A stretch of 64,000 bases of DNA from the IMG/VR virus record IMGVR_UViG_3300028992_000036. One strand, given 5' to 3'. The notes under the pieces were generated by a model. It was given only the letters and a program-made list of their open reading frames with translations. It did no database searches and was not told the origin of the DNA. Source of the DNA: a virus. Taxonomy: Duplodnaviria > Heunggongvirae > Uroviricota > Caudoviricetes. Positions within the stretch are counted from its first letter, which is position 1. Every line of letters starts with the position of its first letter. The position numbers were made by a program, and so were the translations under genes. Below, in pieces: positions 26,568 through 52,871 of the stretch.

Positions 26568-28601
26568 TTACTTAACCTGGTGGCCAGGTTTAGCACCAGC
26601 ATCCGGGCTTAACAGGAAGATATCTTTCCCGCCGGGGCCAGCAGCCATCACCATGCCTTCAGAGATACCGAAGCGCATTTTACGTGGTGCCAGGTTAGCC
26701 ACCATAATGGTGTGACGACCAATCAGTGCCTGTGGATCTGGATAAGCGGAACGGATGCCTGAGAAGACATTACGCTTTTCACCACCGAGATCCAGCGTCA
26801 GGCGAAGCAGTTTGTCAGAACCTTCTACAAACTCTGCGTTTTCAATCAGCGCCACGCGCAGGTCAACTTTGGCGAAGTCGTCAAAGGTGATAGTTTCCTG
26901 AATCGGGTCGTCAGCCAGTGGGCCAGTTACCGGTGCGGCTGTGGCTTTCACTTCTTCTTTGGATGCTTCCACCAGTGCTTCAACCTGCTTCATATCGATG
27001 CGGTTATACAGTGCCTTGAACGGATTCACTTTATGGCCCAGCAGCGGTTGCTGGATACCATCCCAGGTCAGTTCTGTATTCAGGAATGCTTCTGCACGTT
27101 CAGTCAGTTTCGGCAGTACCGGTTTCAGGTACGTCATCAGCACGCGGAACAGGTTAATGCCCATAGAGCAAATCGCCTGCAGATCGGCATCGCGTCCTTC
27201 CTGCTTTGCCACCACCCACGGAGCCTGTTCATCAACATAGCGGTTAGCCAGGTCAGCCAGTGCCATGATTTCACGGATAGCTTTGCCAAATTCGCGGCTT
27301 TCCCATGCTTCGCCAATCACTTCAGCGGCATCAGTAAAGGTTTTGTACAGTTGCGGGTCAGCCAGTTCGCTTGCCAGCACGCCGTCAAAACGCTTGTTGA
27401 TAAAGCCTGCATTACGGGAGGCCAGGTTAACCACTTTGTTAACGATATCGGCATTCACACGCTGAACGAAATCTTCCAGGTTGAGATCGATATCATCAAT
27501 GCGCGAAGAGAGTTTCGCAGTGTAGTAGTAACGCAGGCTGTCGGCGTCAAAATGATTCAGCCAGGTGCTGGCTTTAATAAAGGTGCCGCGAGACTTGGAC
27601 ATCTTCGCGCCGTTCACCGTCACATAGCCGTGAACAAACAGGTTGGTCGGCTTGCGGAAGTTGCTGCCTTCCAGCATGGCAGGCCAGAACAGGCTGTGGA
27701 AGTAAACGATATCTTTGCCGATGAAGTGGTACAGCTCGGCGGTGGAGTCTTTCTTCCAGTATTCGTCGAAGCTGGTAGTGTCGCCGCGTTTGTCGCACAG
27801 ATTCTTGAAGGAACCCATGTAGCCAATCGGCGCGTCCAGCCAGACGTAGAAGTATTTGCCCGGTGCGTTCGGAATTTCAAAACCGAAGTAAGGTGCGTCA
27901 CGGGAGATATCCCACTGTTGCAGGCCAGATTCAAACCACTCCTGCATTTTGTTTGCCACCTGCTCCTGCAACGCACCGCTGCGGGTCCATGCCTGCAACA
28001 TTTCGCTGAAAGAAGGCAGATCAAAGAAGAAGTGTTCGGAATCACGCATTACCGGTGTAGCGCCAGAAACCACTGATTTCGGCTCGATCAGTTCCGTCGG
28101 GCTGTATGTCGCGCCGCAGACTTCACAGTTATCGCCGTATTGATCCGGCGCTTTACATTTCGGGCATGTGCCTTTTACAAAACGGTCCGGCAGGAACATG
28201 CCTTTTTCCGGGTCGTACAGCTGAGAGATGGTGCGGTTTTTAATAAAACCGTTCTCTTTCAGGCGAGTATAGATAAGCTCGGACAACTGACGGTTCTCTT
28301 CGCTGTGCGTCGAGTGATAGTTGTCATAGCTGATGTTAAAGCCTGCGAAATCAGTCTGATGTTCCTGACTCATTTCGCCAATCATCTGTTCCGGTGTGAT
28401 ACCAAGCTGCTGTGCTTTCAGCATGATTGGCGTACCGTGGGCATCGTCGGCACAGATGAAATTAACCTCGTGGCCGCGCATTCGCTGGTAACGAACCCAG
28501 ACATCAGCCTGGATGTGCTCCAGCATATGGCCGAGGTGGATTGAGCCGTTAGCGTACGGCAGCGCGCACGTCACCAGAATTTTCTTCGCGACTTGGGTCA
28601 T
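26568..28601 (-). CDS. metG: methionyl-tRNA synthetase
   Basis: Protein from [29 protein letters not shown]... with class I HIGH motif (HLGH) and KMSKS; 677 aa; track ORF over-extended by 43 codons. Confidence 0.95.
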
Positions 28602-28758
28602 AGTAGGCATTACTTCTTTGTAGTGAAAAGGGGCTTGATAGTAACAAAATGGCCTTATGTCTGCCATGTGATAACAGCATTTCTCATAAATGATTAAATG
28701 TCGTAGCTGGAGTACACTACAAGGCGACAATTGCGCAAATTAAAATAAAGGAGACGGG

Positions 28759-29859
28759 ATGAGCGAGTCCAAATCGCCGGATGCCCTGAGAGCAATGGTA
28801 GCCGGTACGCTGGCTAATTTTCAGCACCCAACCCTGAAACACAACCTGACTACGCTTAAAGCGTTACACCATGTTGCGTTGATGGATGACACACTGCATG
28901 TCGAACTAATCATGCCTTTCGTGTGGAATAAGCCTTTTGAAGACCTGAAAGAGCAATGTAGTGGTGATCTGCTCCGTATCACTGGCGCAAAGGCTATTGA
29001 CTGGAAGCTGTCGTACAACATTGCCACGCTTAAGCGCGTCAAAAACCAACCAGGCATTAATGGCGTTAAGAACATTATCGCCGTCAGCTCAGGCAAGGGC
29101 GGCGTGGGTAAATCCTCCACGGCGGTAAACCTGGCACTGGCGTTGGCTGCTGAAGGTGCGAAAGTTGGTATTTTGGATGCCGATATCTATGGTCCATCAA
29201 TTCCAACCATGCTGGGCGCGGAAAACCAACGTCCAACCTCACCGGACGGTACTCACATGGCACCTATCATGTCTCATGGCCTGGCAACCAACTCTATTGG
29301 TTATCTGGTCACCGACGACAATGCAATGGTGTGGCGTGGACCGATGGCCAGCAAGGCGCTGATGCAGATGTTGCAGGAAACACTGTGGCCTGATCTGGAC
29401 TATCTCGTTCTCGATATGCCACCGGGCACTGGTGATATTCAATTGACGCTGGCGCAGAACATTCCTGTAACTGGTGCGGTTGTGGTAACTACGCCGCAAG
29501 ACATCGCGCTGATCGATGCGAAGAAAGGCATTGTGATGTTCGAAAAAGTCGAAGTGCCGGTACTGGGTATCGTTGAAAACATGAGTGTGCATATTTGCAG
29601 TAACTGCGGTCATCACGAGCCAATTTTTGGCACCGGTGGCGCACAGAAACTGGCCGAGAAATACAACACGCAGTTGTTAGGCCAAATGCCACTTCATATC
29701 TCTCTTCGTGAAGATCTGGATAACGGAACACCAACCGTTATTAGTCGTCCAGATAGTGAATTTACGGCTATTTATCGTGACCTCGCAGATCGCGTTGCTG
29801 CCCAAATGTATTGGCAAGGTGAAGTAATACCTGGCGAAATCGCATTCCGCGCAGTGTGA
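28759..29859 (+). CDS. apbC: Fe-S cluster carrier ATPase ApbC/Mrp
   Basis: P-loop [12 protein letters not shown], CxxC region ICSNCGHHE; divergent from metG as in E. coli; GGAG RBS. Confidence 0.9.
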
Positions 29860-29866
29860 TAAAAAG

Positions 29867-29995
29867 GTGGTGCTTTTGCCGTTACGCACCACCCCGTCAG
29901 TAGCTGAACAGGAGGGACAGCTGATAGAAACAGAAGCCACTGGAGCACCTCAAAAACACCATCATACACTAAATCAGTAAGTTGGCAGCATCACC
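29867..29995 (-). mobile_element. IS1 remnant (left terminal ~127 bp incl. IRL and first 22 codons of insA)
   Basis: Reverse complement reads GGTGATGCTGCCAACTTACTGATTTAGTGTATGATGG...; InsA N-terminus [24 protein letters not shown]; ends 8 nt after the apbC stop. Confidence 0.8.
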
Positions 29996-30104: not shown

Positions 30105-30135
30105 TTAAGGCCACAACTTATGGCCTTTATTTATT
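30105..30135. terminator. bidirectional hairpin terminator candidate
   Basis: GGCCA-caactta-TGGCC hairpin flanked by T-rich runs on both strands. Confidence 0.4.
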
Positions 30136-30157: not shown

Positions 30158-30538
30158 CTAATTGCCGGATAAAATGGGGTGAGGTGCTTGCCAGTAGGCT
30201 CCACCGTTCCATGTGAACCCCATGCGAATAAGAGTGTTTATTGCGGCTTTGGTAGACTCCGATTCGACACTGGCTTTACGAAACTCTTGAACCTCTTTCG
30301 CCAACTTGTATGTAATTGTGCAGGGGACGATTGCAGCCCAGCCTTTCTCATGACTGTTAATGACCATCTGGATGTGACCATCCAGAATAGGTTGATTAGG
30401 CATGTTATTGAAAATGTCTGCCTGTTTTTGAATGTGAAGAAAAAGCCTTGCCAGCGCCATTTGCTCACTACGAGACAAGGGATTATCAAGAGGGCTTTTT
30501 GCAAAAGCTGCTATACGCTGTGCATCAATGCCAAACAT
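30158..30538 (-). CDS. hypothetical protein
   Basis: 126 aa; start overlaps upstream stop (TGATG). Confidence 0.45.
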   Translation of the reverse strand: MFGIDAQRIAAFAKSPLDNPLSRSEQMALARLFLHIQKQADIFNNMPNQPILDGHIQMVINSHEKGWAAIVPCTITYKLAKEVQEFRKASVESESTKAAINTLIRMGFTWNGGAYWQAPHPILSGN

Positions 30539-31242
30539 CAGCGCACCTCACCATCTTTATGGCTGGAGTTAACTTCCGTCATTAAATGTCTGACGTAATC
30601 GACAAGAGAGCCGCCTGGTGGAATCTGGCATTCCTCAACTAACTGGAAGTAGATATCCGCTGCATTACGTGTATTGCTACCCGCGCATATTCTTTCTTCC
30701 CGAAGTGCATGAAGCTCGTTGATCAAACGGTCACACTCTCCGTTACGCTGATCCACAACGGCCTCAAGCTCTGCGACGCGTTCACCTGGCGTCTTACCTT
30801 CTTTGCGTTGGATGGTAACGACGAAATCGCCAATTGCAGGGACGTTGTAATCCAGCTCAAGGTAGTTTTTGGCACCGCTGCGGACGAACTCACCCGCGAA
30901 CATGGTGGCGAACATCGCAGAGGCCACTTCTCCGTTGAAAAGTGACTCCAGATCTAACGGAGTCCCGGCAGCAAGAGCCTCTTTTGCTGTATCCATTGCA
31001 TCCATGAACCGATCAAACTCACTAGCGCGCTTTTCCAGGTCTTTCCATTGCTCGCTCCAACGTTTGGCAACGAAGTCTATGAATGTTTTCGCGGATTCAT
31101 CAAAATTCCCCTCAAACTTAACGATGCCTTTATCAATAATGATCTGGCCTACCGCATCCTCTGCATAACCTTTCAATGTAAACTTGAAAGGAAAATCGGA
31201 ATGGCCTGTGACGTTAAAATGCTCTAACTGGAGGTTGCTCAT
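30538..31242 (-). CDS. hypothetical protein
   Basis: 234 aa; AAGAGA RBS. Confidence 0.45.
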   Translation of the reverse strand: MSNLQLEHFNVTGHSDFPFKFTLKGYAEDAVGQIIIDKGIVKFEGNFDESAKTFIDFVAKRWSEQWKDLEKRASEFDRFMDAMDTAKEALAAGTPLDLESLFNGEVASAMFATMFAGEFVRSGAKNYLELDYNVPAIGDFVVTIQRKEGKTPGERVAELEAVVDQRNGECDRLINELHALREERICAGSNTRNAADIYFQLVEECQIPPGGSLVDYVRHLMTEVNSSHKDGEVR

Positions 31243-31303: not shown

Positions 31304-32989
31304 TCATTTAACGCGTTTGAAAACGTATACGCTGACTGTGATCCCTGTGTCTTCAAACTCGTTGGTAAACGACTTCCCTCTGGCATAAACGTAATTATCC
31401 ATCGTCATCCAGTCCAGTATTGGCGCAGTGCCCGGCAATACTGCTACAAGACGCCCGCCGACTTTCAGATGCCCCAGCGCAGCCAGCGTGTGCTCTCTAT
31501 GACGACCAAGCGAGTACGGCGGGTTCATAACGATTTTGTCGAACTGATAACCTGCGTTGTCCTCAGACCACTTTATGAAGTCGCAGCAAATCGTGTTCGT
31601 ATACCCTTTTCCACGCAGGATATCAGCGAAGAGAGGTGCGATTTCTATGCAGGTAACATCTTCCAGATCGGCGTCAATATAGGCCAGAAGATCCCCACGT
31701 CCGGCTTGAGGCTCCAACAGCTTCTCACCAGGCTTCAATTCAGTGGCTCTTGCAACGTACTCAGCAATCAAGCGTGGGGTAGGGTAGAACTGGTGTGATT
31801 TTGTATCCGGTATTAAACCGGTAGCCACAATCGTATTTAGCGTATGGCCGATGTCATACGGGAACTGCCAGTGCTTTTTCTCCTGCACGCCGCCAATGAA
31901 GCTCAGTGTGCGCTCAAGCTCTTCCACCTGCGACTTCTGGAGAGCTGAATCAGAGAAGTACCATACACCTTTGTCTTTGCTCAATCGCCCGTCACGAAGC
32001 GCAGTGCGAACCGGCACGGAGATCGTCTTCTGGATTAAACCGAACTGCTTTGGTGCCCGTGTTTTTGGCGCAGTTCGGCATGGCGCGGGGATTGCAGCAG
32101 GCATACTGTAAGCCAGCACCTCATTCAACTTCCAGGCCACGTCAGGATGTATTTCAAAGTGAACGTTGCCGTTCTTGAACATCTTCACGCGCATCAGATT
32201 TCCATCGACGTTCATCCAGTCACCGGTCTGGCAGTCGTTTGCCCGATACGCAGCTGATAGCACCTCAGCAGTGCGGTTGATGGTAATAAATTCTTTGTGC
32301 GCGAAGAAATGAAGCAAGACACGCAGATCGTCGATGTAGTCCTCTTTGCGATAGTTCACGCTAACGCTGTCCCGCCAGAAATCAGAAATGCAGTCAGCGA
32401 TTATCAGCCGCTCGCTGAAACCATTTGTCTTATTTGTCTTGTGCACAGGACTCAGCGCCTTAAACAAGCCATACACGCGCTCAGAGAGATATTTGTGCCT
32501 GTCATTCAGCAAATTAAGCATCGTGGGTATGACCGTTTCTGCTTTGAACTCCGGTACACCAACGAACTCTTTAACCTTCATCTGGTAGCCGGTTCTGTCA
32601 GTTTTGATGACTTCCTGTTTGCCCTCTATAAACTGCTCGCGCCACTCATCTCGACGGGAAGCTGGCATGATCAGCAAAACGTTAGTCATGTCCGTGACCT
32701 TCCTCCAGTACTCGGCCCAAATATTCTGTTTCACCCATTCCAGATCGACTTTATCCAACCAACCTCGATTTAAACGCGAGCGATCTTCATCTGGTCGATG
32801 GTTTAGTTTCAGCAGGCGATTAATCATGTTGTGGCGTTCGTCGCCATAAACGAAGTTGTGAACCTGATACATGAAGGCGATCTCTTTCTCGCACTCGGCC
32901 ACAATTTCGTGGATAACGTTCATTTCCTGACGATAATCGATAGCAGTGTTTGAGCTGGCATCGTCGATGATGGAAAGGGCTGTATTCAT
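31304..32989 (-). CDS. orphan N6-adenine DNA methyltransferase with large N-terminal domain of unknown function
   Basis: C-terminal FYPTP, motif I EPQAGRGDL, motif IV NPPY; ~400-aa N-terminal extension; motif A at 33001-33035. Confidence 0.65.
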   Translation of the reverse strand: MNTALSIIDDASSNTAIDYRQEMNVIHEIVAECEKEIAFMYQVHNFVYGDERHNMINRLLKLNHRPDEDRSRLNRGWLDKVDLEWVKQNIWAEYWRKVTDMTNVLLIMPASRRDEWREQFIEGKQEVIKTDRTGYQMKVKEFVGVPEFKAETVIPTMLNLLNDRHKYLSERVYGLFKALSPVHKTNKTNGFSERLIIADCISDFWRDSVSVNYRKEDYIDDLRVLLHFFAHKEFITINRTAEVLSAAYRANDCQTGDWMNVDGNLMRVKMFKNGNVHFEIHPDVAWKLNEVLAYSMPAAIPAPCRTAPKTRAPKQFGLIQKTISVPVRTALRDGRLSKDKGVWYFSDSALQKSQVEELERTLSFIGGVQEKKHWQFPYDIGHTLNTIVATGLIPDTKSHQFYPTPRLIAEYVARATELKPGEKLLEPQAGRGDLLAYIDADLEDVTCIEIAPLFADILRGKGYTNTICCDFIKWSEDNAGYQFDKIVMNPPYSLGRHREHTLAALGHLKVGGRLVAVLPGTAPILDWMTMDNYVYARGKSFTNEFEDTGITVSVYVFKRVK

Positions 32990-33130
32990 AATTACACCAT
33001 TAAATAATTTGTTTTCTGATTGGTGTAATTATCGCAAACTTGAAAAGGCATAAAAGCTGCATTCATAGGCGTTACAGCAGATTTAAGGCGTAAAAATGGG
33101 GGCTGTCGCCCCCTGTCGACTGGTGCTGTA

Positions 33131-36943: not shown

Positions 36944-37537
36944 CTAAGCAGCCTTCTTTGATGGTCTTTTTTTCCTGATCACATTCGCAGGATCATACCC
37001 TCCCAGACTTTTCATGACGTCCAAAGGGATCTTGCTTATAGAGTGCCCAGCGTCCTGACAGAATCCTCGAAAAACAACGAGCATACTGCCACCTGGGTTG
37101 ATGTTTACTTCTACCTGACCCAGATTTACGTCAGGCTCGACAAACGCTACGCGGCCACCAGACAGAATAATCGTCTCATTCGCACACTCTGTTGCACGCT
37201 CATACCACTTTGTATCTAGGGATTGAGGAATTAGCATCACTGTTGTAACTCCGCGAGCCTGCTCACGTATAGCCGCATCAATCCAGGGGTAGATTTTGGA
37301 GTAGGGTGGATTGAGGAAGGCAATTGTACCTGGCTGTCCCCATTCAGATTTCAAAGCATCACGCTCAACGCCTATGAAATTAGGCAGCTTTGCATTGTCC
37401 TTGTTGCAGGCAACGTCAACATCAAATGTCACTCCAAGATAACGTTGAATGGCAGAAAACAGCCAGTCAGGTGTTCTCCAGAGGTCACGAAGAGAGTTGT
37501 CACGCTTTCGCTGTTTGATTTTTTCGGCTGCAATCAT
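36944..37537 (-). CDS. phage-type Dam-family N6-adenine DNA methyltransferase
   Basis: NPPYS motif in a short ~197-aa protein typical of small phage Dam-like methylases; motif B immediately upstream. Confidence 0.7.
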   Translation of the reverse strand: MIAAEKIKQRKRDNSLRDLWRTPDWLFSAIQRYLGVTFDVDVACNKDNAKLPNFIGVERDALKSEWGQPGTIAFLNPPYSKIYPWIDAAIREQARGVTTVMLIPQSLDTKWYERATECANETIILSGGRVAFVEPDVNLGQVEVNINPGGSMLVVFRGFCQDAGHSISKIPLDVMKSLGGYDPANVIRKKRPSKKAA

Positions 37538-39736: not shown

Positions 39737-40381
39737 CTAATGAACGGTCACTCGGCCACAGAACCGGTTTTCTATCTTTTCTACAGCGTTATCTAGCATT
39801 CTCATCACTGATCTGGCTCTTGCTTCAACCGTGCGATATCGGTTGGAAACGACGAAGGTTTGCAGATCTCCCCTTTGCGGATGCAGGTGAATTTTTGTCA
39901 GTTCCCCGCACATCAACGCATCAATACGAGCGACATACAGACGGTCTAATGATGCTCGTTGTGATCGCAAGTAATCTCGCTCTGAGAGAGCGACTCCCGG
40001 GCGTAAGCCAGCAATGGCGTTAAAGTTTGAAATAGCAGTTTTGTGGCAAAACTTTTCGATATCGAGGGCTAACTCAATACACCGATCTTCATTTGTATGG
40101 CCGACCAAATCCAACGTGTAGGCCATAACATCAGCAGGTGTGCGATCGATAACAAAGCCTTCAACACCACGCGTAAGTAGCTCTATATGCTTTGCTATTT
40201 CCATTTGAATCTGAAGCCGCTCATATAGAGGCATAGAATCACCTACTCGAACACCGAGGCGGCTCATCAAACTTCCGACACCAGCATCCACGTAAGGGAT
40301 TCCGTAATGTTTGTCGATATATTTAGCCAGGGTTGTTTTCCCACTGCCCTGAGCACCAGTGATCCCAATCCGGTAATCCAT
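39737..40381 (-). CDS. P-loop NTPase, putative (deoxy)nucleotide kinase
   Basis: Walker A GITGAQGSGKTT near the N-terminus; coupled to DHFR (TAATG). Confidence 0.5.
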   Translation of the reverse strand: MDYRIGITGAQGSGKTTLAKYIDKHYGIPYVDAGVGSLMSRLGVRVGDSMPLYERLQIQMEIAKHIELLTRGVEGFVIDRTPADVMAYTLDLVGHTNEDRCIELALDIEKFCHKTAISNFNAIAGLRPGVALSERDYLRSQRASLDRLYVARIDALMCGELTKIHLHPQRGDLQTFVVSNRYRTVEARARSVMRMLDNAVEKIENRFCGRVTVH

Positions 40382-40857
40382 TACGACCTTCTGTATACGA
40401 TCTGCGAAAAGCCAGGCTCTTCCTCGCTGGCTCGTTGGGTATAAGCTGTTTCAACAGGCACAAAGCCTAAGTTACGCATCATGCTTGCCGGGAAGAATGC
40501 ATCGGCGTTTGGTACATCAATGCCGATGTGGGAGAGCCAAATCTCTTCAACATGCGGCATGAATAGCGAGTAAATTTGTTCCCCGCCAATCACCCACACA
40601 GGCTCTGGTAATCGCAACACATCATCCACACCAGCAGGGTAGAATCCATTTGGTACAAAGCCATGAGAGCGCGTCAAAACGAGGTTATGACGCTCTGGAA
40701 GAGGGCGTTTGAGACTTTCCATCGTTTTACGCCCCATAACGACAGTGGCGTTTTTGGTGAGTCTCTTAAATAGCTTCAGATCGGTAGAACAACGCCAGGG
40801 GAGTTCATTCGCTATGCCGATCTCATAGTTACGGCCAACAGCAGCGATCATCTTCAT
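40381..40857 (-). CDS. dihydrofolate reductase
   Basis: DHFR pattern ..IAAV..IG....LPW....DL..FK..T....VVMGRKT.ES...PLP.R.N.VLTR ... VIGGEQIY; 158 aa. Confidence 0.8.
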   Translation of the reverse strand: MKMIAAVGRNYEIGIANELPWRCSTDLKLFKRLTKNATVVMGRKTMESLKRPLPERHNLVLTRSHGFVPNGFYPAGVDDVLRLPEPVWVIGGEQIYSLFMPHVEEIWLSHIGIDVPNADAFFPASMMRNLGFVPVETAYTQRASEEEPGFSQIVYRRS

Positions 40858-41267
40858 TTGCTCACCTCATAGATGACCGGTCGATGGTGAGAGTCGGCTA
40901 AAGCGGCACGGAGTCGAGGATCGTGCACCAGCGCAGCGATAAGCAGATCGCCTTTATGCTCCGCTAATGTGCGCTTAATATGCTTCTCATAACTGGTGCC
41001 ATTCGGTACGAGATGAAGCCAGTCATAATCAACGCCAAAATCTTTCAGCCATCGTTTAGTTGGCGCTTCAAGAGTTTCAGAGCGGCTACTGATAAGCACC
41101 ACTTCAGCCCCTGAGCGAGCAAAACCACGCAACATACGGCTGGTGGGGAAAATGAGTTCATCACCGGCAATGAATTGGCCTGCATCCGAGTCAGATACAG
41201 ATTTACGATGGCTGGTATTTGCCAGCACACCTTCAATTTCGCATAAGACATACATACCTCTTGCCAT
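40854..41267 (-). CDS. hypothetical protein
   Basis: ATG 41267 two nt after the thyA stop; track start over-extended. Confidence 0.4.
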   Translation of the reverse strand: MARGMYVLCEIEGVLANTSHRKSVSDSDAGQFIAGDELIFPTSRMLRGFARSGAEVVLISSRSETLEAPTKRWLKDFGVDYDWLHLVPNGTSYEKHIKRTLAEHKGDLLIAALVHDPRLRAALADSHHRPVIYEVSK

Positions 41268-41268
41268 A

Positions 41269-42372
41269 TCACACCGCCACTGGAACCTTGATCCACGGTA
41301 GAGGGGCATAGCCAAGAATAAGAATCTCGTCCCATTTGAAATCATCCAGCTCAGACCATTCATTAGGGAATATAACGACCGGATCTGAATGCTCTGGAGC
41401 CTGTCGTTGCATTAGCTCACACACACCTTCCATGTGGTTGTTGTACAAATGCACGTCAAAGCCAAAATGCACAAATGCACCGGCCATGTGACCCGTAATC
41501 TTCGCGAGAAAATGAGTGAGAATGCCATAGCCAGCAATATTGAATGGCATACCAACAAAAGTGTCTACGCTACGCTGTACGAGGCAGGAGTTGAGGATGC
41601 GTTTGGGGATTCCAAGTTCATCCAGTTCAGTTTCAGTAACACTGCCGTCCATCTCCAGATCGTATAGCATCTTGGTGTAGATAGACTCATAACCGAGGCG
41701 ACTGTGTTGAAGACCAATGTCAGTTGCCATCGTTAAACGGGTTTCAAAATCCAGTTCACGACTCCACAAAGAGAAGACAAAGTGGCAAGGTGGCAGTTTC
41801 ATATCCTCAAGCTCGCCTACGTTCCATGCGTTAAGCATGATGCGACGATCGGTAGGGTTCGTGCGCAGTGTATCGACAATACGCTGTAGCTGATCGATTT
41901 CACGGGACAGCACTACGCGATCTTCACTGATACCCAGGTATCCCTCGACTTTGTACCCGCGTTCACGGAAAGTAGCGATCTTGCTCAGATATTCACTATG
42001 GCTCACGATGCGGGTATCTTCCCATCGACGCCACTGCTTACCGTAAACCGGCCCCAAATCGCCATTCTCATCGGCCCATGCATCCCAAATCTTAACGCCG
42101 TTATCCTTGAGAAATTGGATGTTGCCCGTGCCTTTCAGATACCACTCAAGTTCGACAAGCAGTGGCTTAAGATTTACCGCCTTTCCAGAAATAAGCGGCA
42201 CAGTCCCACCAGTAAGCATGTAGTAAGAGGGAACGTAGCAGGTGCTTAAAGTACCAGTGCCTGTGCGATCATCAGCCTGCACGCCGCTTTTAAGCACCGT
42301 CTCAATAACTTTTGCATACGATGCGTTTGTTACCTGACCGTTCGTATGCTCACGATTCAAAAGGAGTGACAC
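41269..42372 (-). CDS. thyA: thymidylate synthase with two insertions relative to canonical ThyA
   Basis: DRTGTGT, WADENGDLGPVYGKQWR, AWNVGEL, catalytic PPCH, PFNIAGY (Asn suggests dUMP specificity), C-terminal PLPWIKVPVAV; ~367 aa vs ~264 in E. coli; GTG 42372 with GAGG RBS. Confidence 0.8.
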   Translation of the reverse strand: MSLLLNREHTNGQVTNASYAKVIETVLKSGVQADDRTGTGTLSTCYVPSYYMLTGGTVPLISGKAVNLKPLLVELEWYLKGTGNIQFLKDNGVKIWDAWADENGDLGPVYGKQWRRWEDTRIVSHSEYLSKIATFRERGYKVEGYLGISEDRVVLSREIDQLQRIVDTLRTNPTDRRIMLNAWNVGELEDMKLPPCHFVFSLWSRELDFETRLTMATDIGLQHSRLGYESIYTKMLYDLEMDGSVTETELDELGIPKRILNSCLVQRSVDTFVGMPFNIAGYGILTHFLAKITGHMAGAFVHFGFDVHLYNNHMEGVCELMQRQAPEHSDPVVIFPNEWSELDDFKWDEILILGYAPLPWIKVPVAV

Positions 42373-42543
42373 AAAAACCTCACAAAGATAAGTGACCACT
42401 TATTCATTAAGTGAGTTTACATTTATTGAGGGAACAAGGCCAGATAGATAAAAAAATGGTGGCCATAGGCCACCAAAAACGAATAGTTGTTTCAGAAATT
42501 TAACGCGCCAGCGCAATATACACAGATAGATAACTACCTACAA

Positions 42544-43413
42544 TTATTTTTTGATCATTCCGTACATTGCTGAGGCTTTAGCTTGCTCAACAAAGGAGGA
42601 TAAATCGACATCACTATAGGTTGGAGACTTCAGAATCTTTCCATCGGAAATTCGAAAACCGATCATCTTATCGGTGCCATCAGCATGGCGAAATCCCAGG
42701 TCAGAAGAGTCGTATTTGCAGTTGGCCACAGCATGGCGACGCTCTTCGGCATCTGCAGGCCATAATTTTGTCATGTTGGACCGATGAATTTCGCCAACCA
42801 GCTCGACGACATTGATACCGAGAAAATCAGCCAGTCGATAAGTCATCATGCACGCCACATAGATTTTGTTCATTACACGGCGCAGTTCCTGAATCAGCTC
42901 AGAATCCTTAACAGTCTTCTTCTCAAGTTTATCTGCCAGCTCTTCGAGCATACATGACGCCTCACGAGCTTCCTGAAATGGCATTGCCATATCATCGAAA
43001 ACAGTGTTACCAGGCACAAAAATTGTCTGCATAAAGCGATCAATGCTCTGTTCCTGCGTGTAATAAGTCATGCCGGTAGAAATACCACCTTTGATGGCGA
43101 CCATCGTACCAACACCAACGTATAAAAAGTCGGCCATTGCATCCAGCAGTTGCTCAATATCCCCATTCATTGCGGCTGGAATACCTTCCACTACAGCTTC
43201 TTCATGAATCAGGCTTGCACGGAGACGAAGCAGCTCTGGTGTCGGCATAACGCGTCTCGGATGCTGGAAGAGTTCATGAAACTGATCGACCATCTTGTAA
43301 ATACTTTCAGTGGCTACACCATGGCCTTCATGCAATTCATATGGTTCTGGCTTAAATCCAATGAGTCGATCGGTGGCAAGTTTCAGGTGGTCAGTCAGTT
43401 TGGTAAAGTTCAT
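42544..43413 (-). CDS. MazG-like nucleotide pyrophosphohydrolase, putative (tandem repeat)
   Basis: Two EExxE...D-type helical segments; weak assignment; GAAGGA RBS. Confidence 0.35.
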   Translation of the reverse strand: MNFTKLTDHLKLATDRLIGFKPEPYELHEGHGVATESIYKMVDQFHELFQHPRRVMPTPELLRLRASLIHEEAVVEGIPAAMNGDIEQLLDAMADFLYVGVGTMVAIKGGISTGMTYYTQEQSIDRFMQTIFVPGNTVFDDMAMPFQEAREASCMLEELADKLEKKTVKDSELIQELRRVMNKIYVACMMTYRLADFLGINVVELVGEIHRSNMTKLWPADAEERRHAVANCKYDSSDLGFRHADGTDKMIGFRISDGKILKSPTYSDVDLSSFVEQAKASAMYGMIKK

Positions 43414-43490
43414 GCTAGTTTTGTTCCTTCTTAATTCTTGTGATCCATTGTGGCCCAGCGTTGCCAGGCCACATAATGCTTTGTATCGGT

Positions 43491-44633
43491 TTACAGGTCT
43501 GCAAACTGGCTTAGAGAAGCCTTATCCACGGTAGAATCGATCTGACCTACCAGATATGTGCTTTGCTCTGCCTCTTGTGGTGCAATTTGCAGTGTGTCGG
43601 TTAACAACCACTTGTTCATCCAGACCAGCGGGTCAGTGGTAACTTCTGGAAATAAAGCCTTCAGGCCAAGACGATTCATAGCCAGATTGGTGCGGTATTT
43701 TACATAGGTTTTGAGAATATCCGCGTTTAAACCAATCATCGAACCGTCTTTGAAGAGATAGTCTGCCCAGTTCATTTCTTGTTCGGCGACTGATTTCATG
43801 GTGTCGTAAATGACGTTTTCTTCATCAGCAGCAATCTCTTTCCACAATAAACCTTCGCGACCGGTACGCATGAAGCGGATCATGCGTTCAGTTCCTTCGC
43901 AATGCAGAGCTTCATCACGGGCAATAAAGCGCATAATTTTGGTGTTACCCTCAAGCAACTTCCGTTCACCAAAGGCAAACGTACATGCAAAACTTACGTA
44001 GAAACGGATCGCCTCAAGCGCATTAATGGACACCAACGTGCGGAAAAGCTGACGATGCAAAGGGTATGGCTCCCAGCCATATTCATTTACGTACAGACGC
44101 TCAAATTCCTTCTCACCTAACGACTGGCGCTCGCAGGTCATCCCATAAAGCCTGTCATATTCAGCAGAGATACTGATCGCTCGGTTGATGATTTCTTCAT
44201 CCGTAACAATACCGTCAAAAACAATGCTCGGATCGTCCACCATGCCACGAATAATGTGGGTGTAGCTGCGGCTATGGATAGTCTCAGAGAAAGACCACGT
44301 TTCAACCCACGTTTCCAGTTCAGGAATAGAGATAAGCGGCAGCAGCGTTGCATTTGGGCTACGTCCCTGAACTGAATCGAGTAACGTTTGATAACGGAGA
44401 TTGCTCAGAAAAATGTGACGTTCGTGGTCCCGCAGCTTCGTGTTGAAGTCGATACGATCGCTCGAAATATCAACTTCTTCCGGCCGCCAGAAGAAAGACA
44501 ATTGACGTTCAATCAACTTTTCAAAATCACGGTATTTTTGCTGATCGTAACGTGCCACGTTGACAGATTGTCCGAGGAACATAGGCTCTTTGGTTGCATC
44601 ATTAGCACCCAAACGGAACGTTGAATATGACAT
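43491..44633 (-). CDS. nrdB: ribonucleotide reductase class Ia beta subunit
   Basis: Strong similarity to E. coli NrdB pattern ([40 protein letters not shown]-terminal ...QIDS.VD); ATG 44633 with AAGGA RBS. Confidence 0.85.
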
Positions 44634-44738
44634 GTGTTTTTCCTTTTTCTTTTTTATGTGTTTAAACAAGTTGTTATCTTATTTGTTTAAACAAGGCTTA
44701 CAAATCAAAGAGAAGGTGGGGATACACCCCACCATATG

Positions 44739-47054
44739 TCAGATTTTGCAGGCTCCGTCGCACTCATCTTCTGGCTCGACGGCTACAGCTTGCGTCAGTG
44801 GATTCTGCGGTTCGTCGTCATCACGCTTTCCTGCCCCATCTCTGGTGTTGTGGTAGTAAAGCGTTTTAACTCCCATCTTGTAGGCGAGAAGCACATCTGA
44901 CAGTAGCGTCATCATTGGGACTTTATCGCCTTCAAAGCGAGAAGGGTCATAGTTGGTATTGGCTGAAATAGCCTGGTCAAAGAACTTCTGGATGATCGCC
45001 ACCTTTGTCAGATAGCCGCGGTTGTCCGGCATATCCCACAGGTATTCATACTGTTCCTTCAGTTTTTCAAACTCAGGCACGACCATCTTGACGATGCCGT
45101 CCTTAGAAGATTTCACTGACACCGGGCCACGAGGCGGTTCGATGCCGTTGGTGGAATTAGTGATCTGGCTGGAAGTCTCGCATGGCATTTGTGCCGTCAG
45201 TGTGGAGTTGCGAAGGCCGTATTTTGCAATACGTTCACGCAGTTCTTCCCACGGCATCTTTAACTCAAAGTTGGTTTCGCCACTTTCGTCTAATGAAGAA
45301 CGGTAATGGTCGATCGGCAACTGACCAATTGCGTACTTGGTCTGCTCAAACCAGTCACACTCACCTTTTGCTTCAGCAAGTCGGCAGCTGGCATCAAGAA
45401 GGTAATACTGGATAGCTTCGAACGTTTCATGCACCAGTTTATTGCCAGCGGTATCAGAATAACGAACGCCATTTTTTGCCAGGTAATAAGCAAAGTTGGT
45501 TACACCAATTCCCAAGCTACGACGAGCTTTGGCAGGCACTTCGGCTGCCTCCATCGGATAGTCTTGATAATCCAGTAACGAATCCAGTGCAGCAACGGCA
45601 TAGAACGCCACCTCTTTAAGAGACTCCAGTGAACGGATGGCTCCGAGGTTAAAAGCGGATAAAGTGCATAGCGCGATCTCACCGTTCGGGTCGTCGGTAA
45701 ATGCCAGTGGACGGGTGGGTAGGGTGATCTCCATACACAGGTTTGACTGGCGGACAGGTGCAAGAGCAGGAATGAAAGCGCCATGCTCATTAATATGATC
45801 GACGTTCGCAATATAAATTCGGCCCGTGGACGCTCGTTCCTGCATCAGAGATGAGAACAGCTCAATGGCAGGTACTGACTTCTTGCGAATTGAATCATCG
45901 GCTTCGTATTTATGGTACAGCTTTTCAAACAGATCCTGGTCTGTGAAGAAGGCTTCGTACATATCAGGCACATCATGCGGGCTGAACAGAGTGATGTTCT
46001 CGCTTCTGACGAGTCGACGGTACATCAGACGGTTACTCATGACACCGTAATCAAGATGGCGAACGCGGTTTTCATCGATACCACGGTTATTTTTCACCAC
46101 CAGCAGACTTTCAACTTCAAGATGCCAAATCGGGTAAAACGCTGTTGCTGCGCCACCACGGACACCACCTTGCGAGCAAGATTTAACAGCAGTCTGGAAA
46201 TGCTTCAGGAATGGAATAACTCCGGTATGGGTGGCTTCACCATTGCGGATCTCGCTGCCCAGCGCACGGATACGGCCAAAACCAATACCAATTCCAGCAC
46301 GACGTGAAACGTAGTCGATAATTGCGGCTGAAGCTGCACTAATCCCTTTCAGACTATCGCCAGACTCAATCAGCACACAACTGGAGAACTGACGGGTTGG
46401 AGTACGGACGCCGGCCATGATTGGTGTGGGCAGAGACAGTTTGAACGTACTTGTAACGTCATAGAAACCTTTGACCATCTCCATACGTGTTTTGCCAGCG
46501 CAGTCGTCTTCCCAATTCTGGAACAGACACATGCCCACCAGCATATAGATATGTTGCGGCCCCTCATGAATCTCACCAGTAACACGGTTTTGAACGAGGT
46601 ATTTGCTTTGCAATTGCACCGTAGCCGCATAGCCAAAAAGATCGTCACGTTTAGGCTTAATGTAATTGCCGAGTTCTTCGATCTCTTCAAATGAATAATG
46701 TGTCAGCAAATCCTTGTCATAAACGCCCTTGCTAACGTTCTTGATAATGTGTTGGTAGAAGTTCGGATAGTCGTAACGACCGAAGGCATCTTTGCGGATT
46801 TTAAAAATGTTCAGGCGGGCAGCCACCTGCGAGTAATTTGGTGCATCTGGTGAGATCAAATCAGCGGCAGATTTAACCAAAGCCTCATGCAACTGGCTGG
46901 TGGTAATCCCATCAAAAATGCTGGCCGCAGCTCCCATTGCTACAGCGGATGCGCTTACACCACGAATGCCTTCTACGCCATACATTACGACGCGGTTGTA
47001 TTTTTCTTCGGATAACGGCTCTGTTTGGCCGTTACGTTTTACGATGCTTATCAT
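44739..47054 (-). CDS. nrdA: ribonucleotide reductase class Ia alpha subunit
   Basis: Near-collinear with E. coli NrdA (LVQNRVTGEI, PTPIMSGVRTPTRQFSSCVLIE, SQGGVRGGAAT, NLC.EI.LPT, C-terminal CxGACKI). Confidence 0.9.
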   Translation of the reverse strand: MISIVKRNGQTEPLSEEKYNRVVMYGVEGIRGVSASAVAMGAAASIFDGITTSQLHEALVKSAADLISPDAPNYSQVAARLNIFKIRKDAFGRYDYPNFYQHIIKNVSKGVYDKDLLTHYSFEEIEELGNYIKPKRDDLFGYAATVQLQSKYLVQNRVTGEIHEGPQHIYMLVGMCLFQNWEDDCAGKTRMEMVKGFYDVTSTFKLSLPTPIMAGVRTPTRQFSSCVLIESGDSLKGISAASAAIIDYVSRRAGIGIGFGRIRALGSEIRNGEATHTGVIPFLKHFQTAVKSCSQGGVRGGAATAFYPIWHLEVESLLVVKNNRGIDENRVRHLDYGVMSNRLMYRRLVRSENITLFSPHDVPDMYEAFFTDQDLFEKLYHKYEADDSIRKKSVPAIELFSSLMQERASTGRIYIANVDHINEHGAFIPALAPVRQSNLCMEITLPTRPLAFTDDPNGEIALCTLSAFNLGAIRSLESLKEVAFYAVAALDSLLDYQDYPMEAAEVPAKARRSLGIGVTNFAYYLAKNGVRYSDTAGNKLVHETFEAIQYYLLDASCRLAEAKGECDWFEQTKYAIGQLPIDHYRSSLDESGETNFELKMPWEELRERIAKYGLRNSTLTAQMPCETSSQITNSTNGIEPPRGPVSVKSSKDGIVKMVVPEFEKLKEQYEYLWDMPDNRGYLTKVAIIQKFFDQAISANTNYDPSRFEGDKVPMMTLLSDVLLAYKMGVKTLYYHNTRDGAGKRDDDEPQNPLTQAVAVEPEDECDGACKI

Positions 47055-47706: not shown

Positions 47707-48450
47707 TTACCATGTTCCCCATAGAGGGTTTTCCAATAATCTCGCCTCCAACGAATTGGCTACTATTGCCGTTTGCAACGTTGGTTGGGGATAGTTTGCA
47801 AAGTCTGAATACTCATTTTCCTGCGTGACACGTTTATCTACGGCATGTTTAACGCCACTTGCTATGAAATGACGCATGATGCCCAACAGCCTCCGACTGT
47901 CTGCACTATCGTTTGCTAAAACATGAGGGAGCTGAAGTTCGATTTCTACCATTTCTCCATACTTACCAACAAACTGTAGTTTGTCCGCACTGTACTTTTT
48001 ATCCCTCCTTTGGATAAGGAAACCAGTAAAAGCATCACCTGGCGATGCCAAACTATCCACCCGCTTATTGGCAAGTCGAATAAGGTTCGTGAAAGCCATA
48101 CAGTGATGCGCACCCATTCCCCCAAAGAACCCTTCGCTATTAATGTTAAGATCTTCAGTTTCATGGGATGCAATAAACCCAGGCCCGACGTTGGGAAGAT
48201 ATCCCCCCTCAACAAAAGGATTAATCAGGATCGGCGCAATACATCCAGGTGGTAGTGATTTCAAACTTTGCATCAATGGTGTCTCGGATATTAGACCAAG
48301 CAACGCGGCGAATTGTACTCCGTCAATATTGTTGCTGCCCCATAGAATACGTGGAGCCGCACCATTGGAAGTATGCCCATTGATCAGTTTTATCGACTGC
48401 ATCACTGCAAATACCTGCAAAAACTGCGAGCGGCTTAATTTAAACGACAT
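47707..48450 (-). CDS. hypothetical protein
   Basis: 247 aa; AGAGGGG RBS; overlaps upstream gene end by 10 nt. Confidence 0.45.
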   Translation of the reverse strand: MSFKLSRSQFLQVFAVMQSIKLINGHTSNGAAPRILWGSNNIDGVQFAALLGLISETPLMQSLKSLPPGCIAPILINPFVEGGYLPNVGPGFIASHETEDLNINSEGFFGGMGAHHCMAFTNLIRLANKRVDSLASPGDAFTGFLIQRRDKKYSADKLQFVGKYGEMVEIELQLPHVLANDSADSRRLLGIMRHFIASGVKHAVDKRVTQENEYSDFANYPQPTLQTAIVANSLEARLLENPLWGTW

Positions 48451-50356: not shown

Positions 50357-50585
50357 ATAACACCTTTGATACCGTGTGTTAGCTTTTGACCTTCTTTCAA
50401 TCTGAACTCCGTATGCGCCGGGAAGGATCTGCGCCTCAATACGCCTTTTCTGGTTAACCTTCCAAGATAAAACGCTACGGGATTTCCTTGTGGCGGGTAG
50501 GGCTTGTGAAACATCACCGTCTGGCCTCGTTCAAGTCTTTTCATCGTGATGGCAAAGTCTCGAAAGCTCCCATAACGACTTTGCC

Positions 50586-51671: not shown

Positions 51672-51925
51672 GTGTTTTTCCTTTGTGGTTATTTTGATAC
51701 AAATTTTAAGAGCAATGAGAAGGTAAACAACTATGCATAACGGTATGTTAGGAATGAAACGAGCGTCTTAATATACAAAACTTATAAGTAAGTATATACC
51801 TATTTATTGTGGCGCAACTTTGCTTGTCTGTATGACTAAAAATAAGACAGGATCACTGTAGAACGCTATGAGAGCTATTTTGAGGAGGCGTAGATTCTAT
51901 CTACGCCAATATACGATCTGGAGGG

Positions 51926-52570: not shown

Positions 52571-52769
52571 ATGTCATTTTTCTGTGATTGTTAGCCGAGG
52601 CAACGATAACCCACCAGGTGCGCCGAAGGTAGTAAATGCCTGTTTTAATTATTCACATATCCACAGGATAGATCCTAATAAAGAGATCCATAGATAGATC
52701 CTTATATAGATCAAATAAGATCCCCGATCGCTGTAAGCCGCGCCACGACTGGTCTGAAGTCATGTTCAT

Positions 52770-52871
52770 GTATGCTGTCAGCGGTAATTGATAGTCTGTC
52801 AGCGGTTCACCGTATGCTGCCAACTGTTTTTGGTATTCTGTCAGCGGCAAATCAAGTATGCTGTCAGCGGT
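52770..52871. repeat. replication iterons, upstream set (5 copies, ~21-22 bp phase)
   Basis: (G)TATGCTGTCAGCGGT-type direct repeats at 52770, 52791, 52811, 52832, 52856. Confidence 0.7.

What the first reader, a model, noticed from the sequence alone, without database searches (positions are those of the whole stretch)
31304..32989. Orphan N6-adenine methyltransferase with a ~400-aa N-terminal domain of unknown function
The catalytic motifs FYPTP, EPQAGRGDL and NPPY are all in the last ~170 residues; no cognate nuclease or specificity subunit is adjacent. A second, Dam-type orphan methylase lies at 36944-37537. The N-terminal domain may direct target selection or have a separate anti-defence role.
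Basis: partly seen in the sequence, partly recalled or inferred. Interest (0 to 1): 0.5.

Follow-up and report, generated by a model that had tools for sequence, protein, structure and literature searches.

The report
Solitary phage-plasmid adenine methyltransferase with DUF4942
This is a real, already catalogued but uncharacterised gene of SSU5-like phage-plasmids: a stripped-down DNA adenine methyltransferase fused to a conserved unknown-function domain (DUF4942), which on its own is the first gene to enter new hosts on many conjugative plasmids.

Summary
ORF 31304-32989 (-) encodes 561 aa, with FYPTP, EPQAGRGDL and NPPY at residues 401-492. The window is ~100% identical to E. coli plasmid pM160133_p3, an SSU5-like phage-plasmid, where the gene is annotated 'DUF4942 domain-containing protein'.

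The C-terminal 166 aa are a minimal gamma-class (TaqI/EcoKI-like) N6-adenine methyltransferase core with no recognition domain of its own.

The N-terminal ~395 aa comprise:
- a variable helical segment;
- a DUF4942 core (residues 83-303);
- a basic linker;
- a variable small alpha/beta domain.

No solved structure resembles the N-terminal part.

No nuclease or specificity partner is conserved beside the gene: none in 77 genomic loci, in SSU5-like elements down to 46% identity, or in IncHI2 plasmids.

DUF4942 is as conserved as the catalytic core, so it is not a hypervariable recognition domain. It also occurs alone (YdiA/Hp22, ~282 aa) as the oriT-proximal leading-region gene of IncI1 and other plasmids. 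The methyltransferase core occurs alone as IncF YdcA.

Best reading: a solitary self-protective or epigenetic DNA m6A methyltransferase whose DUF4942 module supplies substrate or partner targeting. Activity and target are untested. It is ordinary as a kind and a modest lead on DUF4942.

The parts
31304..32989 (-). Whole gene: 561-aa DUF4942 + methyltransferase protein (stop codon 31304-31306)
   Evidence: ORF listing. 100% identical to WP_032328874.1 'DUF4942 domain-containing protein' on pM160133_p3. Full-length match to PHROG 6263 'DNA methyltransferase', E 1e-298.
32744..32989 (-). Residues 1-82: poorly conserved N-terminal helical segment. Residues 1-17 are disordered in the model.
   Evidence: AF2 models. 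Mean pairwise identity 0.27 with no invariant column.
32081..32743 (-). Residues 83-303: DUF4942 core, including a family-specific beta-hairpin insert at about residues 122-143
   Evidence: Pfam PF13708, 72 bits against a cut-off of 25. hhalign to the stand-alone DUF4942 family gives 99.5% probability, E 1.4e-22, over residues 86-303. 35 of 221 columns are invariant.
32018..32080 (-). Residues 304-324: basic extended linker (pI 11.1) containing invariant R305 and F316 and nearly invariant K314
   Evidence: Alignment invariants, charge calculation, and no secondary structure in the AF2 model.
31805..32017 (-). Residues 325-395: small variable alpha/beta domain directly in front of the catalytic core, with a conserved IGG motif at 365-367
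   Evidence: AF2 secondary structure at pLDDT about 90. Mean pairwise identity 0.30. PHROG 9133 (profile of 1259 positions) matches residues 328-560 as one unit.
31307..31804 (-). Residues 396-561: minimal gamma-class N6-adenine methyltransferase core with no recognition domain after it
   Evidence: Foldseek matches only class I methyltransferases. The family profile hits M.TaqI at 6.2e-10 and EcoR124 HsdM at 3.9e-6. 31% identity, E 2e-14, to the 187-aa IncF YdcA.
31775..31789 (-). Motif X, FYPTP (residues 401-405): the TP cap of the helix in front of the Rossmann fold
   Evidence: Q400, F401, Y402, P403 and P405 are invariant. This feature defines EcoKI/TaqI-like adenine methylases (PMC5512222).
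31688..31714 (-). Motif I, EPQAGRGDL (residues 426-434): the SAM-binding loop
   Evidence: P427, A429 and G430 are invariant. It aligns with M.TaqI LEPACAHGPF.
31514..31525 (-). Motif IV, NPPY (residues 489-492): the catalytic loop
   Evidence: N489, P490 and P491 are invariant and position 492 is Y or F. It aligns with M.TaqI NPPY.
33098..33113 (-). Terminator-like hairpin plus T-run ending the upstream 188-aa gene. The methyltransferase gene therefore probably has its own promoter in 32990-33097.
   Evidence: Terminator scan and the upstream sequence. The promoter itself is inferred, not detected by the scan.
30158..31242 (-). Two downstream genes of unknown function (234 aa and 126 aa, overlapping stop/start), probably co-transcribed but not obligate partners
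   Evidence: ORFs. No Pfam, NCBIfam, PADLOC or PDB match. They are lost from relatives once methyltransferase identity falls to about 69% or below.

Best explanation
The gene encodes a solitary (orphan) DNA N6-adenine methyltransferase. It is a backbone gene of SSU5-like phage-plasmids.

Shown:
- The last 166 residues are a minimal TaqI/EcoKI-like (gamma-class) catalytic core with intact SAM-binding and NPPY motifs. The core has no recognition domain of its own.
- The first ~395 residues are built around a DUF4942 core that is as conserved as the catalytic core.
- The order DUF4942 then methyltransferase is fixed across hundreds of sequence clusters.
- No nuclease or specificity subunit travels with the gene.

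Inferred:
- The enzyme methylates the element's own DNA. This would protect it from restriction when it enters or replicates in a new host, or mark it epigenetically.
- Because the core lacks a recognition domain, substrate engagement must come from the N-terminal part.
- The conserved DUF4942 module would provide a constant function: binding DNA in a structure-dependent rather than sequence-variable way, or binding a host or replication factor.
- Whatever sequence preference exists would reside in the variable small domain directly in front of the core, or in the variable first 82 residues.
- DUF4942 alone is the oriT-nearest leading-region gene of IncI1 and other plasmids. This suggests the module acts in the first minutes of establishment in a new cell.
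For: Gene and motifs.

Catalytic residues are invariant in 27 homologues spanning 33-86% identity to the query.

Fold and family:
- Foldseek matches class I methyltransferases only.
- The family profile hits M.TaqI at 6.2e-10 and EcoR124 HsdM at 3.9e-6.
- The TP-capped helix plus NPP(Y/F) is the signature of EcoKI/TaqI-like adenine methylases (PMC5512222).

Fixed architecture: a search with the N-terminal part alone found 604 cluster representatives. Nearly all of the top 150 are 500-590 aa, with the N-domain first and about 160 aa after it. The distant Paracoccus homologue has the same order.

No partner:
- In 77 genomic loci, no neighbour family occurs in more than 10 loci and none is a nuclease.
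- Flanking genes change within SSU5-like elements while the gene persists from 46% to 100% identity.
- The IncHI2 homologue is also solitary.

Mobile-element restriction:
- 247 of 256 E. coli matches lie on plasmids.
- 4690 PLSDB plasmids and 213 phage records match.
- At least 566 IMG/VR contigs match.

Relatives of the core in counter-defence settings:
- IncF leading-region YdcA.
- Giant polyvalent phage proteins.

Orphan methyltransferases are among the most enriched leading-region functions (PMC11541004).

DUF4942 conservation equals that of the core: mean pairwise identity 0.51 against 0.48, and 16% against 15% invariant columns. Residues 1-82 and 325-395 are variable, at 0.27 and 0.30.

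Stand-alone DUF4942:
- hhalign to the stand-alone family gives 99.5% probability, E 1.4e-22.
- It sits next to oriT in IncI1 plasmids, oriented like ardA and psiAB.
- It lies in leading regions of two other plasmid types.
- It is the 24th largest leading-region-enriched family in Samuel et al., with median position 1 from oriT.
Against: - No experiment bears on activity, substrate or motif for any member of this family; none turned up in the literature searches.
- The core also resembles rRNA and tRNA amino-methyltransferases such as RsmC-like, Erm/KsgA and TrmN. A DNA substrate is therefore probable, not proven.
- A phage-plasmid injects double-stranded DNA. The leading-region logic of conjugation does not transfer directly to it.
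- The stand-alone DUF4942 works without any YdcA-like methyltransferase nearby. DUF4942 may therefore have a function unrelated to methylation.
- The element also carries a Dam-type methylase and a type I HsdM. The need for a third protective methylase is not obvious.
- Inter-domain contacts could not be inspected, because only summary statistics of the models were available.
Confidence: 0.6

Rival explanations
1. Two-in-one counter-defence protein. DUF4942 is an independent anti-defence or establishment effector, for example a direct inhibitor of a restriction or other defence protein. It is merely fused to a promiscuous methyltransferase, as in the polyvalent proteins of phages and plasmids. 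The two halves would act separately.
For: DUF4942 exists alone (~282 aa, thousands of copies) as the first leading-region gene, oriented like ardA, klcA and psiB, with no methyltransferase beside it. The methyltransferase core exists alone as YdcA. The core's relatives sit inside giant polyvalent proteins (PMC5512222). The high, non-TRD-like conservation of DUF4942 fits a fixed target. pESBL Hp22 is dispensable for transfer between laboratory strains, as are ArdA, KlcA and M.EcoGIX.
Against: The fused order is invariant across nearly all of the top 150 cluster representatives. A conserved linker joins the parts, and a confident single-body model was obtained (pTM 0.71). Both points suggest an integrated enzyme rather than beads on a string. 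The domain is neither acidic nor DNA-mimic-like, with pI 7.2 fused and 6.0 alone. The TRD-less core still needs something to hold its substrate.
Confidence: 0.2
2. Epigenetic housekeeping enzyme of the phage-plasmid. The methyltransferase marks the element's DNA to regulate its own replication, partition, the lysis-lysogeny switch or packaging, in the manner of Dam or CcrM, rather than to evade restriction.
For: The gene is a conserved backbone gene across SSU5-like elements of many genera, at 46-100% identity. It sits in the DNA-metabolism block with rnhA, a DnaQ-like exonuclease, dfrA, thyA and nrdAB, about 20 kb from a Rep3-type initiator gene. High conservation of the N-terminal domain would fit a fixed target.
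Against: The same architecture occurs in unrelated contexts with different replication systems: IncHI2 plasmids, P2-like Aeromonas phages and prophages of Beta- and Alphaproteobacteria. Its nearest relatives are in leading regions and polyvalent proteins, which are typical of counter-defence.
Confidence: 0.12
3. Not a DNA enzyme. The NPPY core methylates RNA (rRNA or tRNA m6A/m2G) or a protein glutamine, as do RsmC, RlmF, TrmN6 and HemK, which share the motif.
For: The structure and profile searches also return TrmN, Trm11, RsmC-like, Erm/KsgA, HemK and METTL5. NCBIfam gives only sub-threshold hits to a generic methyltransferase and Erm(37). In homologues, Pfam hits to MTS (PF05175) are as common as hits to N6_Mtase.
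Against: The best profile hit is the DNA enzyme M.TaqI, by three orders of magnitude over the best RNA enzyme. The QFYPTP helix cap is typical of type I and TaqI-like DNA methylases. PADLOC type II methyltransferase and mad2 models match, and PHROG families named DNA methyltransferase match. The distribution is exclusively on mobile elements.
Confidence: 0.06

Closest known systems
M.TaqI / EcoKI-HsdM-like gamma-class N6-adenine DNA methyltransferases
   Same: Class I Rossmann fold. An N-terminal helix capped by a TP motif, a motif I glycine loop and NPPY, in the order X-I-IV. M.TaqI is the best profile hit in the PDB, at E 6.2e-10.
   Different: There is no recognition domain after the core, because the protein ends 69 residues after NPPY, and no HsdS partner. 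In its place a ~395-aa N-terminal region built on DUF4942 precedes the core.
IncF leading-region YdcA ('putative adenine-specific DNA methylase', 187 aa)
   Same: Homologous minimal core with NPPF: 31% identity, E 2e-14, over residues 400-517. Plasmid-borne and orphan.
   Different: YdcA is the core alone. Its upstream neighbour YdbA is DUF3560 and is not related to the N-terminal region here.
YdiA / pESBL Hp22: stand-alone DUF4942 proteins (~282 aa) of IncI1 and other conjugative plasmids
   Same: Homologous to residues 86-303 (hhalign 99.5%, E 1.4e-22). Shared conserved positions include W95, T102, M108, W116, P146, T156, L179-S180, T185-N186, D221-L222, H277 and N289.
   Different: No methyltransferase domain and no beta-hairpin insert. 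It sits first after oriT in the leading region and is a leading-region-enriched family of unknown function. It is dispensable for transfer in laboratory matings.
M.EcoGIX / M.BceJIII single-strand-specific plasmid methyltransferases (Fomenkov et al. 2020, PMC7736820)
   Same: Orphan m6A methyltransferases of mobile elements that protect incoming DNA from restriction. This is a possible functional analogue.
   Different: Those are beta-class enzymes with DPPY. The protein here has the gamma order with NPPY, so it belongs to a different family. The two families share only the methyltransferase superfold.
DarB-type methylase-helicase modules of polyvalent phage/plasmid proteins (Iyer et al. 2017, PMC5512222)
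   Same: An EcoKI/TaqI-like adenine methylase core. PHROG profiles of 1,259-3,925 positions match residues ~396-522 at E down to 2e-19, and PHROG 9133 matches residues 328-560.
   Different: No SF2 helicase is fused, and the protein is not a giant multi-domain one. The N-terminal partner is DUF4942, not LPD36 as described there.
Salmonella phage SSU5 'putative DNA modification methylase' and the IncHI2 DUF4942 protein (e.g. pYD786-1 WP_042973242.1)
   Same: Full-length homologues, at 92% and ~31% identity, with the same architecture and solitary status.
   Different: No difference in kind. All are uncharacterised.

Membership tests
Gamma-class (TaqI/EcoKI-like) N6-adenine DNA methyltransferase | Class I SAM-dependent Rossmann fold | tested here: met
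   In the AF2 model (pLDDT 83), residues ~400-561 match TrmN, HsdM (2okc), M.BseCI, CamA and others by Foldseek at E ~1e-7.
Gamma-class (TaqI/EcoKI-like) N6-adenine DNA methyltransferase | Motif order X (TP-capped helix), then I (glycine loop), then IV NPP(Y/F) | tested here: met
   FYPTP at 401-405, EPQAGRG at 426-432 and NPPY at 489-492, invariant in the family. The definition is taken from PMC5512222.
Gamma-class (TaqI/EcoKI-like) N6-adenine DNA methyltransferase | Significant sequence similarity to archetypes | tested here: met
   Family profile against PDB: M.TaqI 6.2e-10 and EcoR124 HsdM 3.9e-6. The single sequence alone gives only E 0.08.
Gamma-class (TaqI/EcoKI-like) N6-adenine DNA methyltransferase | Target-recognition domain C-terminal to the core, or a separate HsdS subunit | tested here: not met
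   The protein ends 69 residues after NPPY, and those residues complete the Rossmann sheet. No S subunit is adjacent or conserved.
Gamma-class (TaqI/EcoKI-like) N6-adenine DNA methyltransferase | Transfers methyl to N6 of adenine in DNA | not testable with these tools
   Needs methylome sequencing or an in vitro assay.
Pfam DUF4942 (PF13708) | HMM score above the gathering threshold | tested here: met
   72.2 bits against a cut-off of 25, residues 140-295. All 15 family members tested match. Profile-profile homology to the stand-alone family gives 99.5% probability.
M.EcoGIX / M.BceJIII single-strand-specific methyltransferases | Beta-class enzyme with DPPY motif IV | tested here: not met
   The paper states beta family and DPPY. 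The protein here has NPPY, with motif I upstream of motif IV and a TP cap.
M.EcoGIX / M.BceJIII single-strand-specific methyltransferases | Promiscuous (SAY) m6A on single strands, with protection on entry | not testable with these tools
   No biochemical data for this family turned up.
Restriction-modification system component (type I, II, IIG, III) | Fused or adjacent cognate nuclease and/or specificity subunit | tested here: not met
   No nuclease domain in the protein. Neighbours have no such match. No conserved neighbour across 77 loci or within the phage-plasmid lineage. The type I system at 56481-63940 has its own HsdM and HsdS.
DarB-like methylase-helicase module of polyvalent proteins | Adenine methylase fused C-terminally to an SF2/SNF2 helicase, with LPD36 N-terminal to it | tested here: not met
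   Only core similarity, from PHROG hits. The protein ends after the core, with no helicase. The relation of residues 325-395 to LPD36 was not established.
Phage Dam-type N6-adenine methyltransferase (for the second gene, 36944-37537) | Match to PF05869 / TIGR01712 above cut-off | tested here: met
   PF05869 at 131.6 bits against 28.1. TIGR01712 at 113.2 bits against 97.05.

The most novel reading that the evidence does not exclude
DUF4942 (YdiA) is one of the largest leading-region-enriched gene families of plasmids and is typically the first gene after oriT. On this reading it is an autonomous establishment module whose function is tied to DNA adenine methylation. Its obligate fusion to a recognition-domain-less gamma-class core in phage-plasmids, IncHI2 plasmids and prophages would act as a 'Rosetta stone'. 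The fusion would reveal that DUF4942 targets entering or newly replicating DNA, or a host replication or defence factor, in a structure-dependent rather than sequence-dependent way. The result would be broad protective methylation analogous to M.EcoGIX but evolved independently.
Probability: 0.25. Interest if true: 0.6.

Novelty: new member of a known kind. Interest (0 to 1): 0.37.

Why it matters
Orphan methyltransferases are a main way for phages and plasmids to escape restriction, and SSU5-like phage-plasmids are common carriers of accessory genes in Enterobacterales. This particular gene is already catalogued, so the finding itself is ordinary.

The useful point is the link it provides. 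The unknown-function domain fused to the methyltransferase is the same domain that many conjugative plasmids send first into a recipient cell, and it has no assigned function. The fusion gives a concrete, testable hypothesis for that family: it targets or assists DNA methylation or another early protective step. It also offers a compact two-part protein in which to test this.

Tried and rejected
1. Membership in the M.EcoGIX family was my first lead from memory. It is rejected, because that family is beta-class with DPPY.
2. A split-gene hypothesis held that IncF YdbA, just upstream of YdcA, is the counterpart of the N-terminal domain. It is rejected: YdbA is DUF3560 and shows no similarity.
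3. A known recognition domain or a nuclease in the N-terminal region was sought and not found.
   - Pfam at E up to 10 on 15 members gives only DUF4942.
   - PADLOC and NCBIfam give nothing there.
   - Profile searches of PDB sequences give nothing.
   - BFVD gives three weak hits, probably distant DUF4942 proteins.
4. The conserved histidines H183 and H281 were considered as a metal site. This is rejected, because the stand-alone family has Y and R at those positions.
5. Neighbouring genes were considered as partners. This is rejected, because they are not conserved.
6. The type I R-M system in the window was considered as a cognate. It is rejected: it is 23.5 kb away and complete in itself.
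8. Literature searches for DUF4942, ydiA and SSU5 or pHCM2 methylases gave no functional data. No supplementary expression table was held for the pESBL early-transcriptome paper.
Full report
**Observation**

The minus-strand ORF 31304..32989 starts at ATG and encodes 561 aa. All lie within the last 161 residues. The gene is not a chance ORF. It is 100% identical to a RefSeq protein, WP_032328874.1, annotated 'DUF4942 domain-containing protein'. Full-length homologues extend from 99% down to about 31% identity.

**Where the window comes from**

The region is ~100% identical to E. coli plasmid pM160133_p3 (113 kb). Its relatives are ~100-113-kb elements classed as phages and plasmids alike. Salmonella phage SSU5 is 92% identical and annotates the gene as a 'putative DNA modification methylase'. 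Escherichia phages Cyrano and CMS-2020a and several Klebsiella phage-plasmids also match. The window is therefore part of an SSU5-like phage-plasmid.

In E. coli complete genomes the gene occurs in 251 of 5426 genomes, with 247 of 256 places on plasmids. The surrounding block holds DNA-metabolism genes:
- RNase HI, a DnaQ-like exonuclease and a TerB-like protein;
- dfrA51, thyA and nrdAB;

**Anatomy**

An AlphaFold2 model built on a 27-sequence alignment is confident (mean pLDDT 83, pTM 0.71). A second model of residues 1-396 alone agrees with it (pLDDT 82). Five parts can be told apart.

| Residues | Part | Mean pairwise identity | Invariant columns |
|---|---|---|---|
| 1-82 | helices, start disordered | 0.27 | 0/82 |
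| 83-303 | DUF4942 core | 0.51 | 35/221 |
| 304-324 | basic extended linker (pI 11.1) | 0.39 | 2/21 |
| 325-395 | small alpha/beta domain | 0.30 | 4/71 |
| 396-561 | catalytic core | 0.48 | 25/166 |

The conservation figures come and the charge calculation. Pfam matches residues 140-295 at 72 bits against a cut-off of 25. Profile-profile alignment extends the DUF4942 core to residues 86-303. The linker contains invariant R305 and F316.

**The catalytic core**

Foldseek with the full model finds only class I methyltransferases, including TrmN, HsdM, Trm11, M.BseCI and CamA. A profile of the core from 14 family members hits M.TaqI best, at E 6.2e-10. The next hits are another DNA adenine methylase, an RsmC-like rRNA enzyme and EcoR124 HsdM. 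The QFYPTP motif caps a helix and is followed by the glycine loop and NPPY. That arrangement is the signature of EcoKI/TaqI-like gamma-class adenine methylases as described by Iyer et al. (PMC5512222). These residues are invariant across the family, so the enzyme is under selection to stay active. The core has no recognition domain. The protein ends 69 residues after NPPY, and those residues complete the Rossmann sheet.

The core has three other kinds of relative:
- the 187-aa YdcA of IncF leading regions, at 31% identity and E 2e-14;
- the methylase modules of giant polyvalent phage proteins, matched by PHROG profiles of up to 3925 positions;
- the mad2 and type II methylase models of PADLOC.

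It is not a relative of M.EcoGIX, which is beta-class with DPPY.

**The N-terminal region**

Nothing known matches it beyond DUF4942.
- Pfam at E up to 10 on 15 members gives only DUF4942.
- Sequence profiles find nothing among PDB chains.
- The viral structure library gives three weak hits only.

A search with residues 1-395 against 1.84 billion cluster representatives finds 604 relatives. Nearly all of the best 150 are 500-590 aa, with this region first and about 160 residues after it. A distant Paracoccus plasmid protein (479 aa) has the same order. The architecture is therefore fixed.

DUF4942 is as conserved as the catalytic core, whereas recognition domains of methyltransferases are normally the most variable part. 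The variable parts here are residues 1-82 and the small domain just before the core.

**Solitary status**

The immediate neighbours of the gene have no family or structure match: the 188-aa protein upstream, and the 234-aa and 126-aa proteins downstream. A terminator-like hairpin at 33098-33113 separates the gene from the upstream one.

- Genomic loci. Across 77 loci from Alpha-, Beta- and Gammaproteobacteria, no neighbour family occurs in more than 10 loci. The recurrent ones are backbone genes of IncHI2-like plasmids or prophages: a Dam methylase, a ParB-like protein, a CI-like repressor and a YqaJ recombinase. None is a nuclease.
- Phage-plasmid lineage. The gene persists from 100% down to 46% identity, while its flanking genes are replaced below about 69%.
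- IncHI2 plasmids. The homologue there is also solitary.

The window does contain a complete type I R-M system at 56481-63940 (hsdR, a DUF4268 gene, hsdS and hsdM). It lies 23.5 kb away and has its own methylase and specificity subunit.

**The two halves occur separately**

Stand-alone DUF4942 proteins of about 282-295 aa are abundant in Enterobacterales; one 90%-identity cluster alone has 9732 members. They are homologous to residues 86-303 (hhalign 99.5%, E 1.4e-22).

In IncI1 plasmids the gene sits directly beside mobC, oriT and nikA, oriented like ardA, psiA and psiB. In pESBL-EA11 it is the ORF called Hp22 (68947-69795). Transposon sequencing classed Hp22 as dispensable for maintenance and transfer in laboratory matings, like ArdA, KlcA and M.EcoGIX (PMC4288162).

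The same stand-alone gene lies among KlcA, DUF1380, DUF905, ParB, PsiB and PsiA genes in a Pantoea plasmid. It also lies between PsiA and a NikA-like relaxase module in a metagenomic plasmid.

In the supplementary table of Samuel et al. (PMC11541004), 'DUF4942; YdiA' is leading-region-enriched family 24. It has 2171 members, an FDR p of 0, a median position of 1 from oriT and lies on the expressed strand. A second such family is number 76. No YdcA-like methylase accompanies the stand-alone gene in the plasmids inspected.

**Interpretation**

Shown:
- a conserved, intact gamma-class adenine-methyltransferase core;
- no partner genes;
- exclusive association with mobile elements;
- a fixed fusion to a conserved module that is autonomous elsewhere.

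Inferred: the protein methylates the element's own DNA for protection or epigenetic marking. Because the core lacks a recognition domain, the N-terminal region engages the substrate. DUF4942 would provide a constant function, either structure-dependent DNA binding or binding of a host factor. The variable segments would provide any sequence preference.

I give this 0.6. The rivals are:
- independent action of the two halves as a small polyvalent counter-defence protein (0.2);
- a regulatory epigenetic role in the phage-plasmid's own life cycle (0.12);
- a non-DNA substrate (0.06).

No experimental data on any member turned up.

**Verdict**

As a kind of system, an orphan methyltransferase on a phage-plasmid, this is known, and the gene is already catalogued. 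The added value is that the 'unknown' N-terminal domain is identified as DUF4942/YdiA. That is the oriT-proximal leading-region family of unknown function, and its fusion to a recognition-domain-less methylase gives a testable hypothesis for the family.

Noticed in passing
window 56481-63940 (-): A complete type I restriction-modification system on the phage-plasmid. It comprises hsdR (1005 aa, 56481-59498), a DUF4268 gene (59513-60676), hsdS (60686-62014) and hsdM (62021-63940; PF02384, E 1.3e-60). The element therefore carries at least three adenine methylase genes.
   Followed up: partly
window 26568-29945: The chromosomal housekeeping genes metG (methionyl-tRNA synthetase) and apbC/mrp, with an IS1 remnant, are inserted in the phage-plasmid backbone. 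The same block, at 96-100% identity, is on about 200 PLSDB plasmids, including other ~110-kb phage-plasmids and 62-kb E. albertii plasmids.
   Followed up: partly
L085 6722-7570 (IncI1 plasmid pMTY10828_IncI1-I); L172 948-1796 (pESBL-EA11 Hp22): A stand-alone 282-aa DUF4942 protein is the gene nearest oriT on the leading side of IncI1 plasmids, co-oriented with ardA, psiA and psiB. It is uncharacterised and dispensable in laboratory matings.
   Followed up: yes
L003 4506-6477 (IncF plasmid pN12CTX-TC-COL-1): In the IncF leading region the minimal methylase YdcA (187 aa) directly follows YdbA (453 aa, DUF3560). Samuel et al. list DUF3560 as another leading-region-enriched family, labelled 'methyltransferase domain protein' by structure search. 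A possible YdbA-YdcA functional pair was not examined further.
   Followed up: partly
window 36944-37537 (-): The second orphan methylase is a phage Dam-type enzyme (PF05869, TIGR01712). It is kept together with the DUF4942 methylase in many but not all SSU5-like relatives: 24 of 67 loci with enough flank. IncHI2 plasmids likewise keep a D12-class Dam near their DUF4942 methylase.
   Followed up: partly
window 40381-47054 and 48440-53986: The first stretch is a nucleotide-metabolism block: dfrA51 (a trimethoprim-resistant DHFR), thymidylate synthase and nrdB/nrdA. The second holds SbcC-like and SbcD-like genes and a Rep3-type initiator (52772-53986).
   Followed up: no
L005 (JAEWTL010000044.1, 'MAG: Bacillota bacterium'): A contig binned as Bacillota carries a 94%-identical copy of this enterobacterial phage-plasmid gene. 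This is most likely a binning artefact rather than a Gram-positive host.
   Followed up: no
window 30107-30127 and 33098-33113: Terminator-like hairpins bracket a probable three-gene transcription unit: the methylase plus the 234-aa and 126-aa unknowns. No strong sigma-70 consensus promoter was detected upstream. A TGn-extended -10 (TGCGATAAT) is visible by eye about 45 nt before the start codon.
   Followed up: no
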